From positions 19,344,001 to 19,408,000 of the forward strand of contig OX597830.1 in the NCBI GenBank assembly GCA_951406725.2: a DNA stretch of 64,000 bases, given 5' to 3'. Of the stretch, positions 50,496-51,322 are shown piece after piece. This DNA is from Octopus vulgaris (taxonomy: Eukaryota). The notes beneath the pieces are model-generated. The model did no database searches and was not told the DNA's origin. It saw only the letters and a program-made list of their open reading frames with translations. How positions within the stretch are numbered: position 1 is the stretch's first letter; each line of letters starts with the position of its first letter. The position numbers and the translations under genes were made by a program.

Positions 50496-50621
50496 TTCTG
50501 ATCACAGCAATCAACTGTTATAGCACTGATTTCGCAGCAAACATTCAGGTGGCTTTTACAGTAGCCAAAATCACAGCCCTCCTCATCATCATTATTGGTG
50601 GTTTTGTAATGATGGGAAAAG
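50496..50621 (+). CDS. SLC7A9: SLC7A9-like coding exon 4
   Basis: TCCAG acceptor, ILITAINCYSTDFAANIQVAFTVAKITALLIIIIGGFVMMGK, GTAATT donor; 126 nt. Confidence 0.93.
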
Positions 50622-50809
50622 GTAATTATAAGCAAAAATTTTGTCTTTTTTTGTTTTCATTTTTATTGTATGCATGTATGCTTCAGCATGACTGCAGTCA
50701 CATAGCTTAATTACATAAGAGAAATATATATATATATATATATATATATATTACGGAGATGTACTCGCATAGCAAGTAATTTGATCTGAGATCGTGTGCT
50801 GAAATGAAA

Positions 50810-51088
50810 ACAATTGCAGCGTGGAAGGTGTTTGTAAGCCATTTAAGAAACACACAAAAGCCGTTCGATTCACTTCAACATTTAAGTTTAATTTGTCAAA
50901 ATATTTTCGTCGCTAAAATCCGCGACCTGTTCACTGACAAAAATCCGTGCTGCATCTGATTTTTGTCAGTGAAGAGGTCGCGGATTTTAGCGACGAAAAT
51001 ATTTTGACAAATTAAACTTAAATGTTGAAGTGAATCGAACGGCTTTTGTGTGTTTCTTAAATGGCTTACAAACACCTTCCACGCTGCA

Positions 51089-51093
<5 letters not shown>
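50810..51093. repeat. Near-perfect palindrome: 136-bp arms, 12-nt spacer, one mismatch
   Basis: 50810-50945 is the reverse complement of 50958-51093 except at 50929/50974. Confidence 0.95.
50892..50941 (-). ncRNA. Hammerhead motif with G3:C8 compensatory core (GUGAACA)
   Basis: UUUGUCA-GUGAACA-G-GUCGC..GCGAC-GAAA-AUAU-UU-UGACAAA. The mirror copy at 50962-51011(+) has GUGAAGA. Confidence 0.68.
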
Positions 51094-51145
<52 letters not shown>

Positions 51146-51322
51146 ATATACACTTATACAGGAGTGACTGTGTGGTGAGAAATTTGCTTGCTTCTGGGTT
51201 CGGTCCCACTGCATGGTGCATTGGGCAAGTGTTTTCTACTCTAGCCTTGGACCAACCAAGGCTTTGTAAATAGATTTCATAGCTAGAAACTGAAAGAAGC
51301 CCGTTGTATGTGTTTGTATATA

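What the first reader, a model, noticed from the sequence alone, without database searches (positions are those of the whole stretch)
50810..51093. 136-bp palindrome whose only mismatch is hammerhead core position 8; G3:C8 swapped ribozyme
Seen: the arms are identical except 50929/50974. The minus-strand arm core reads GUGAACA (G3, C8) and the plus-strand arm reads GUGAAGA (G3, G8). Known: C3:G8 is a tertiary Watson-Crick pair in the active HHR fold, and the double swap can rescue activity while single changes disable it. Inference: this family naturally uses G3:C8, with an unusual UUU triplet. The copy transcribed in the SLC7A9-like pre-mRNA (sense, intron 4, about 190 bp after exon 4) is the one with the disabling change. 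That could be chance or selection against intronic cleavage.
Basis: partly seen in the sequence, partly recalled or inferred. Interest (0 to 1): 0.76.

Follow-up and report, generated by a model that had tools for sequence, protein, structure and literature searches.

The report
Octopus transposon hammerhead with swapped core
The palindrome is an ordinary back-to-back insertion of a Penelope-like jumping gene, but this family's thousands of copies carry a hammerhead ribozyme motif whose core base pair is reversed (G3:C8 instead of C3:G8), which is predicted to remain weakly active and has not been assayed.

Summary
In detail: 136-nt arms, one mismatch at 50929/50974, which is hammerhead position 8, in coding intron 4 of an SLC7A9-like gene. 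Both arms are the terminal repeat (pLTR) of a young Neptune-like Penelope element (RT plus GIY-YIG). The true insertion starts at 50754. Head-to-head pairs are routine: 744 C8/C8, 18 C8/G8 and 9 G8/G8 in this genome. The family core is G3:C8 (6,323 exact copies against 220 G3/G8; 29 of 30 ORF-linked loci). A sister family has C3:G8 at the homologous place, so the pair covaries. I found only U3:A8 described as a natural swap, but four papers that could report G3:C8 were not held. Two first-reader points fail. U17 is common in Penelope hammerheads. Selection against intronic cleavage is unnecessary, because the hairpin buries the ribozyme whichever base is at 8. Unexplained: C8-to-G is about 12 times background, recurs on many haplotypes and is present in independent short-read data. 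Activity is untested.

The parts
50754..50957 (-). pLTR copy of a Neptune-like Penelope element, with tail (204 nt); carries the G3:C8 hammerhead motif
   Evidence: Matches at 94.6-99.3% the unit about 1 kb downstream of RT/GIY-YIG ORFs in 30 of 30 loci; blastn to window
50892..50941 (-). Type I minimal hammerhead motif, family-consensus core: helix I 7 bp, G3 at 50934, C8 at 50929, extra G after A9, helix II 5 bp, self-complementary AAUAUU helix III, U17 at 50899
   Evidence: Sequence, folding, family counts
50754..50809 (-). Tail: 5' part of the element's ORF beyond the shorter end point; present on this arm only
   Evidence: Tail on exactly one arm in 32 of 38 palindromes, on both arms in 0; aligns with the ORF N-terminus of the sister family
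50946..50957 (-). Apparent spacer; it is the first 12 nt of the minus copy, joined head-to-head to nt 13 of the plus copy
50958..51092 (+). Inverted pLTR copy without tail; carries the G3/G8 variant
   Evidence: copies L002 and L171 have no mismatch to it over unit positions 13-146 (L171 with 3 uncovered places)
50962..51011 (+). Hammerhead motif with G3 (50969) and G8 (50974); no Watson-Crick 3:8 pair; sequestered in the hairpin in the host pre-mRNA
50724..50751 (.). (AT)14 left flank, likely target microsatellite
51093..51150 (.). (TA)29 right flank, likely target microsatellite
50496..50621 (+). Host coding exon 4 of a b(0,+)-type amino acid transporter (SLC7A9-like) gene; context only
   Evidence: splice sites read

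Best explanation
The palindrome is a head-to-head insertion of two short terminal-repeat (pLTR) copies of a young Penelope-like retrotransposon whose hammerhead motif has the reversed core pair G3:C8, likely a weakly active dimer-dependent ribozyme, and the single mismatch is a recurrent G8 family variant that was likely already present in the template of one arm. Shown: the unit lies downstream of RT plus GIY-YIG ORFs; G3:C8 is the family consensus; the sister family has C3:G8; one arm has the tail and the other does not; the flanks are (TA)n. Inferred: G3:C8 keeps the tertiary 3:8 pair; the AAUAUU segment forms helix III only between two copies; the inherited U17 avoids a Watson-Crick G3-C17 trap and so made the swap tolerable. 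Inferred: at this locus neither motif can fold in a read-through transcript, so the insertion is a dead by-product.
For: Unit linked to ORFs of up to 1,025 aa with RT motifs, a Cys linker and GIY-YIG (Pfam GIY-YIG E=1.4e-4, just under its cut-off; Atlas hits at 0.97 to HTH_animal/GIY-YIG clusters). Exact 20-mer counts: G3/C8 6,323, G3/G8 220, G3 with A8 or U8 159, non-G3 203. Core-blind sample: 57 of 65 GUGAACAG, 2 of 65 G8. Sister family (57% protein identity): 49 of 52 hits read CUGAUGCG, with a compensatory G-C/A-U change in helix II and U17. The free position 7 varies in 137 copies and the constrained A6 in 45. Palindromes: 744 C/C, 18 C/G, 9 G/G; about 4.5 C/G expected from mutation after insertion. 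In 5 of 38 palindromes the two arms carry different loop II subfamily types. Literature: inverted truncated copy and one-sided tail (PMC8557442); both strands cut and extended, two RT start sites, partial rescue by C3G/G8C (PMC11167929); G3-C8 does better without C17 (PMC3884650, data not shown there).
Against: No cleavage assay. Rfam found no hammerhead. No copy with C3:G8 and this family's flanks was seen (0 of the first 100 of 203; 0 of 25), so the covariation rests on one sister family whose motif does not align well by sequence. Second arms starting at the predicted cleavage site are only 9 of 62, most with an ambiguous junction (read by eye), against about 770 uncut palindromes. The 12-fold excess of G8 is not explained if G8 simply kills a selected ribozyme. 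The position 7 versus 6 difference could be mutational. G3 can wobble-pair with U17. This locus's junction was not bridged in 4 runs.
Confidence: 0.78

Rival explanations
1. The motif is a catalytically dead relic: G3 and C8 were fixed by drift in a family that no longer needs self-cleavage.
For: Hammerhead mutants do not affect insertion in vitro for the anole element (PMC11167929). Nearly all palindromes run through the cleavage site. Naiads thrive without hammerheads (PMC8557442).
Against: Two transversions that restore exactly the 3:8 pair are unlikely by drift. Inherited subfamily differences lie in loop II and the flanks; the one in helix I (A to G, 13 of 199) keeps a U-G pair. Position 7 varies three times as often as A6.
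Confidence: 0.2
2. One reading: the sense-strand copy carries G8 because selection removed an active ribozyme from the host pre-mRNA.
For: The G8 arm is the sense arm. G8 copies are skewed to contigs C15 and later compared with A8/U8 copies (132 of 220 against 60 of 159, Fisher p=2e-5), which could reflect gene density.
Against: The hairpin buries the motif (helix II probability about 1e-20). A single copy cannot form a stable helix III. 744 palindromes keep C8 on both strands. With one G8 arm, sense orientation has a 50% prior. Selection should not prefer G8 over A8. Orientation against genes could not be tested (no annotation).
Confidence: 0.07
3. The mismatch is a private point mutation after insertion of a fold-back copy made from one template.
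For: 35 palindromes are C/T or C/A at position 8, so changes after insertion do occur. Many palindromes have nearly identical arms. G/G pairs (9) far exceed independent draws (0.4), so arms are correlated.
Against: Background C-to-G is 0.27% per site (13 of 4,774) against 3.3% at position 8. Identical G8 arms exist elsewhere. The arms have no other mismatch.
Confidence: 0.2
4. The palindrome or the G is an assembly artefact.
For: The junction was not bridged in 4 runs; palindromes in TA repeats are hard to assemble.
Against: The arms differ in tail and in position 8; about 770 similar palindromes have varied junctions. G8 words occur in short-read contigs of 3 studies at roughly 2-3% of C8 word depth, and at about 0.1% in a fourth.
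Confidence: 0.04

Closest known systems
Minimal type I hammerheads of Penelope-like elements (PMC4209133; main text parts 1-2 of 4 and supplement part 2 of 3 read)
   Same: Sits in the pLTR; short palindromic helix III (AAUAUU) implying dimers; extra nucleotide between 9 and 10.1; G10.1-C11.1 pair; U17 common; opposite-strand pairs noted there.
   Different: Core pair is G3:C8. In the parts read only C3:G8, U3:A8 and U3/G8 occur (0 of 44 listed motifs start with G3). The extra nucleotide is G, whereas the consensus there is H (not G).
Inverted, 5'-truncated PLE insertions with a one-sided tail (PMC8557442, passages; PMC11167929, parts 1-2 of 4)
   Same: Inverted copy joined at the 5' end, tail on one end, AT-rich or (TA)n target, tail equals the ORF's 5' part.
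   Different: Tail is about 57 nt rather than 30-40. Both arms are reduced to the pLTR. Arms sometimes come from different subfamilies, which the passages I read do not describe.
Engineered C3G/G8C hammerheads (PMC11167929; review PMC8495972, one passage; PMC3884650, discussion)
   Same: Same swapped tertiary pair; partial rescue reported, including in a Penelope hammerhead.
   Different: Here the swap is natural, family-wide and in an element with intact young ORFs.
Natural U3:A8 hammerheads (PMC3088659, section 8; PMC4209133)
   Same: Natural covariation at positions 3 and 8.
   Different: U3:A8 keeps pyrimidine-purine order and needs two transitions; G3:C8 reverses the order and needs two transversions.
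Non-LTR retrozymes (bioRxiv 10.64898/2026.07.22.740005, part 1 of 5)
   Same: A 16-unit tandem array of this unit exists at L112.
   Different: This locus is an inverted pair, not a tandem array, so it cannot give a same-strand dimer.

Membership tests
Penelope-like element (EN+) | Unit is the terminal repeat of an ORF with RT and C-terminal GIY-YIG endonuclease | tested here: met
   the unit lies about 1 kb downstream of the ORF in 30 of 30 loci; Pfam GIY-YIG just under its cut-off; RT motifs in a 1,025-aa frame
Penelope-like element (EN+) | Inverted 5'-truncated copy with a tail on one end | tested here: met
   tail on exactly one arm in 32 of 38 palindromes, neither in 6, both in 0
Penelope-like element (EN+) | Tandem pLTR-ORF-pLTR full-length copy | tested here: inconclusive
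   Not seen in 8 long loci of this family; seen in the sister family
Neptune clade | Cys-rich Zn-finger-like linker between RT and EN; (TA)n targets | tested here: met
   CxxC..C linker; TA flanks. Nematis shares the linker
Neptune clade | Placement in an RT tree with reference clades | not tested
   No named reference PLE proteins were in hand; the label 'Neptune-like' rests on the linker and target only
Hammerhead ribozyme (type I minimal, PLE type) | Helices I and II around the core, GAAA, A15.1-U16.1, NUH triplet | tested here: met
   7-bp and 5-bp helices; UUU in 63 of 65 core-blind copies
Hammerhead ribozyme (type I minimal, PLE type) | Canonical core sequence CUGANGA | tested here: not met
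   Core is GUGAACA; Rfam no hit
Hammerhead ribozyme (type I minimal, PLE type) | Watson-Crick pair between positions 3 and 8 | tested here: met
   G3:C8 in the minus arm and family; C3:G8 in the sister family. Not met in the plus arm
Hammerhead ribozyme (type I minimal, PLE type) | Palindromic helix III allowing a dimer | tested here: met
   AAUAUU is self-complementary; double-hammerhead fold -27.2 kcal/mol against -31.3 for the best dimer fold
Hammerhead ribozyme (type I minimal, PLE type) | Self-cleavage at H17 | not testable with these tools
   Indirect test inconclusive: 9 of 62 truncated arms are compatible with the site
Non-LTR retrozyme | Tandem same-strand units each with a hammerhead | tested here: not met
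   This locus is inverted; the array form exists elsewhere (L112)

The most novel reading that the evidence does not exclude
This is the first natural hammerhead family with a reversed G3:C8 core: active, kept by selection in a currently mobile element with over 6,000 copies, and made possible by an inherited U17. The 12-fold excess of G8 revertants and the mixed-subfamily palindromes record how Penelope elements copy two RNA templates at one double-strand cut, giving a genome-scale natural mutagenesis of the 3:8 pair.
Probability: 0.4. Interest if true: 0.66.

Novelty: new variant of a known kind. Interest (0 to 1): 0.5.

Why it matters
The 3:8 pair is the hallmark of the active hammerhead fold, and its G:C reversal was known to me and to the papers I read only as an engineered rescue. 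A natural family with that reversal, beside a sister family with C3:G8 and an unusual C9, shows that the standard CUGANGA searches miss whole young families, and gives matched natural constructs to ask whether Penelope hammerheads need to cleave at all, which is an open question. The palindrome counts also offer a genomic test of two-template insertion. The locus itself is an ordinary dead insertion.

Tried and rejected
Rfam scan: no hammerhead; only miRNA- and snoRNA-type matches below their gathering scores, mostly on microsatellites. A strict hammerhead scan of the window that allowed no more than the canonical layout found nothing. Upstream DNA of six G8 copies and one C8 copy held no Penelope ORF; the ORF was found by walking from the shared 3' region. 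Metagenome scan for related elements: 1 weak hit, unused. Read support for this junction: contigs of 7 run-layings break in the repeat; no bridge, which proves nothing. G8 as one subfamily: rejected, 39 changes for 53 G8 rows against a shuffled mean of 44, on a poorly resolved tree of 200 rows enriched for G8 by my sampling (the 15 tandem-array rows were left out). G8 as a relic of a C3-U7-G8 ancestor: no such copy among 25 double variants. Cleavage-site pile-up: inconclusive. MITE reading from the 8-bp CGGAGATG/CATCTCCG match at the ends: rejected, the unit is ORF-linked. Energies of constrained folds failed on a length error and were redone; the helix I probabilities used wrong pairs and are not used. 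Papers not held: PMC5785218, PMC1986816, PMC2271363, PMC3334697, PMC3004062. Searches for a natural G3:C8 report; none listed.

Full report
Observation. The inverted repeat is as described: arms 50810-50945 and 50958-51093, 136 nt, 12 nt apart, with one mismatch at 50929/50974. Each arm folds into a 7-bp helix I and a 5-bp helix II around GUGAACA-G (minus) or GUGAAGA-G (plus), followed by GAA, AAUAUU and U17. The neighbouring exon (50496-50621) matches L-type amino acid transporters, and its closest named relatives are octopus b(0,+)-type transporters. It is the fourth coding exon on the + strand. Rfam reports no hammerhead.

What it is. The arm is a repeat family. The minus copy continues to 50754, and (AT)14 and (TA)29 flank the whole. 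Walking upstream from longer copies reached an ORF with RT motifs, a Cys linker and GIY-YIG. In 30 of 30 loci picked by that ORF the unit lies about 1 kb downstream, and 29 of them read GUGAACA. Many ORF copies score identically and one frame is open for 1,025 aa, so the family is young. The unit is therefore the pLTR of a Penelope-like element. I call it Neptune-like from the linker and the TA targets only; no tree with references was made. The tail translates to the ORF's N-terminus and aligns with that of a sister family, as reported for the anole element (PMC11167929, parts 1-2 of 4).

The palindrome is routine. Exact patterns give 744 C8/C8, 18 C8/G8, 9 G8/G8, 35 C8 with A8 or U8, and 3 U8/U8 head-to-head pairs. 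In 32 of 38 examined, exactly one arm has the tail; none has two. This fits the published structure of Penelope insertions (PMC8557442, passages) and the finding that both strands are cut and extended from two internal start sites. In 5 of 38 the arms carry different loop II subfamily types, which a simple fold-back cannot give. I infer two templates in at least some insertions. Arms are still correlated: 9 G/G pairs against 0.4 expected from independent draws.

The core. G3:C8 is the family state: 6,323 exact 20-mers against 220 G3/G8, 159 with A8 or U8, and 203 with another base at 3. In 65 copies chosen without regard to the core, 57 read GUGAACAG. A sister family at 57% protein identity has, at the same distance before its ORF, CUGAUGCG in 49 of 52 hits, with a compensatory change in helix II and U17. 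Positions 3 and 8 thus covary between the two families, though the DNA alignment of the two motifs is poor. Inherited differences among 200 copies lie in loop II and the flanks, apart from one helix I change that keeps a U-G pair (this sample is partly selected on the core). The free position 7 varies in 137 copies and A6 in 45. These points favour selection on a working ribozyme but do not show cleavage. Among 62 palindromes with a truncated second arm, 9 are compatible with a start at the cleavage site (read by eye), which is inconclusive.

The triplet. U17 is not unusual: 20 of 44 motifs in part 2 of the PMC4209133 supplement have it, one as UUU, and none has G3 (my count; supplement file 1 could not be searched). 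PMC3884650 states, without showing data, that G3-C8 works better with G17 than with C17. I infer that the inherited U17 removed the G3-C17 trap and made the swap tolerable.

The mismatch. G8 makes up 3.3% of position 8, against a background C-to-G rate of 0.27% at 24 other sites, while changes to U and A match background (73 U and 27 A among the first 100 of 159, my count). It is scattered over the tree (39 changes for 53 rows) and occurs in short-read contigs of three studies at roughly 2-3% of C8 depth, so it is real and recurrent. Arms without a mismatch to this G8 arm exist at L002 and L171, and C/G palindromes are about four times what mutation after insertion predicts. The G8 arm was most likely copied from a G8 template. 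Why G8 recurs is unexplained. A slip of the RT at this sequence is my best guess; tolerance of G8 by the ribozyme is the alternative. No C3-U7-G8 relic was found.

Selection against intronic cleavage. In the sense transcript the insertion folds into one hairpin of -244 kcal/mol, and the ribozyme's helix II has a probability near 1e-20, whichever base is at 8. A lone copy lacks a stable helix III, and 744 palindromes keep C8 on both strands. I could not test orientation against genes. One point is left for the idea: G8 copies are skewed to contigs C15 and later relative to A8/U8 copies (p=2e-5).

Comparison and novelty. It works like a Penelope minimal hammerhead (PMC4209133, parts 1-2 of 4) and meets the structural tests, but fails the canonical CUGANGA sequence. 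Natural U3:A8 is in print (PMC3088659 section 8). G3:C8 appeared only as an engineered variant in six searches. The papers most likely to list it (PMC5785218, PMC3334697, PMC3004062, PMC1986816) were not held, so the claim of novelty is provisional. Two earlier scan notes from other genomes read similar palindromes the same way; I did not test them and they are not support.

Verdict. The locus is an ordinary dead insertion. The family-wide reversed core is a new variant of a known kind, probably functional and directly testable. Interest 0.5.

Noticed in passing
L240:2617 (G000 C26), also L241-L245: Very young sister Penelope family with 1,311-aa ORFs in 4.6-kb tandems; its hammerhead reads CUGAUGCG, so C replaces the conserved A9 in 49 of 52 hits.
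   Followed up: partly
Genome-wide, position 8 of the motif: C-to-G at position 8 is 3.3% (220 of 6,702) against 0.27% background, while C-to-T and C-to-A match background; it recurs on many haplotypes and is skewed to the smaller contigs. Ten further copies read GUGAGAAG.
   Followed up: partly
L112:1412-4100 (G000 C28, 5.21 Mb): Tandem array of 16 G3:C8 units of about 170 bp, retrozyme-like, at the 3' end of a longer copy.
   Followed up: no
L155, L158, L164, L171, L176: Palindromes whose arms carry different loop II subfamily types, pointing to two templates per insertion.
   Followed up: partly
Upstream of the unit in long copies, e.g. L024:1460-1490: Branch-point-like CTAAC, pyrimidine tract and YAG directly before the unit; most short copies start at about this point. 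It may be a pLTR intron acceptor, as in D. virilis Penelope.
   Followed up: no
L110/L117 (G000 C2, 59.4 Mb) and C2 56.2 Mb: Two copies with A3:U8, a further Watson-Crick combination (2 of the first 100 non-G3 copies).
   Followed up: no
Genome-wide, position 7: A7-to-U is the commonest change at the free position 7 (more than half of the first 100 of 137), an unusual transversion excess.
   Followed up: no
window 28411-61967: Eight coding exons of a b(0,+)-type amino acid transporter gene; several close paralogues are named.
   Followed up: partly
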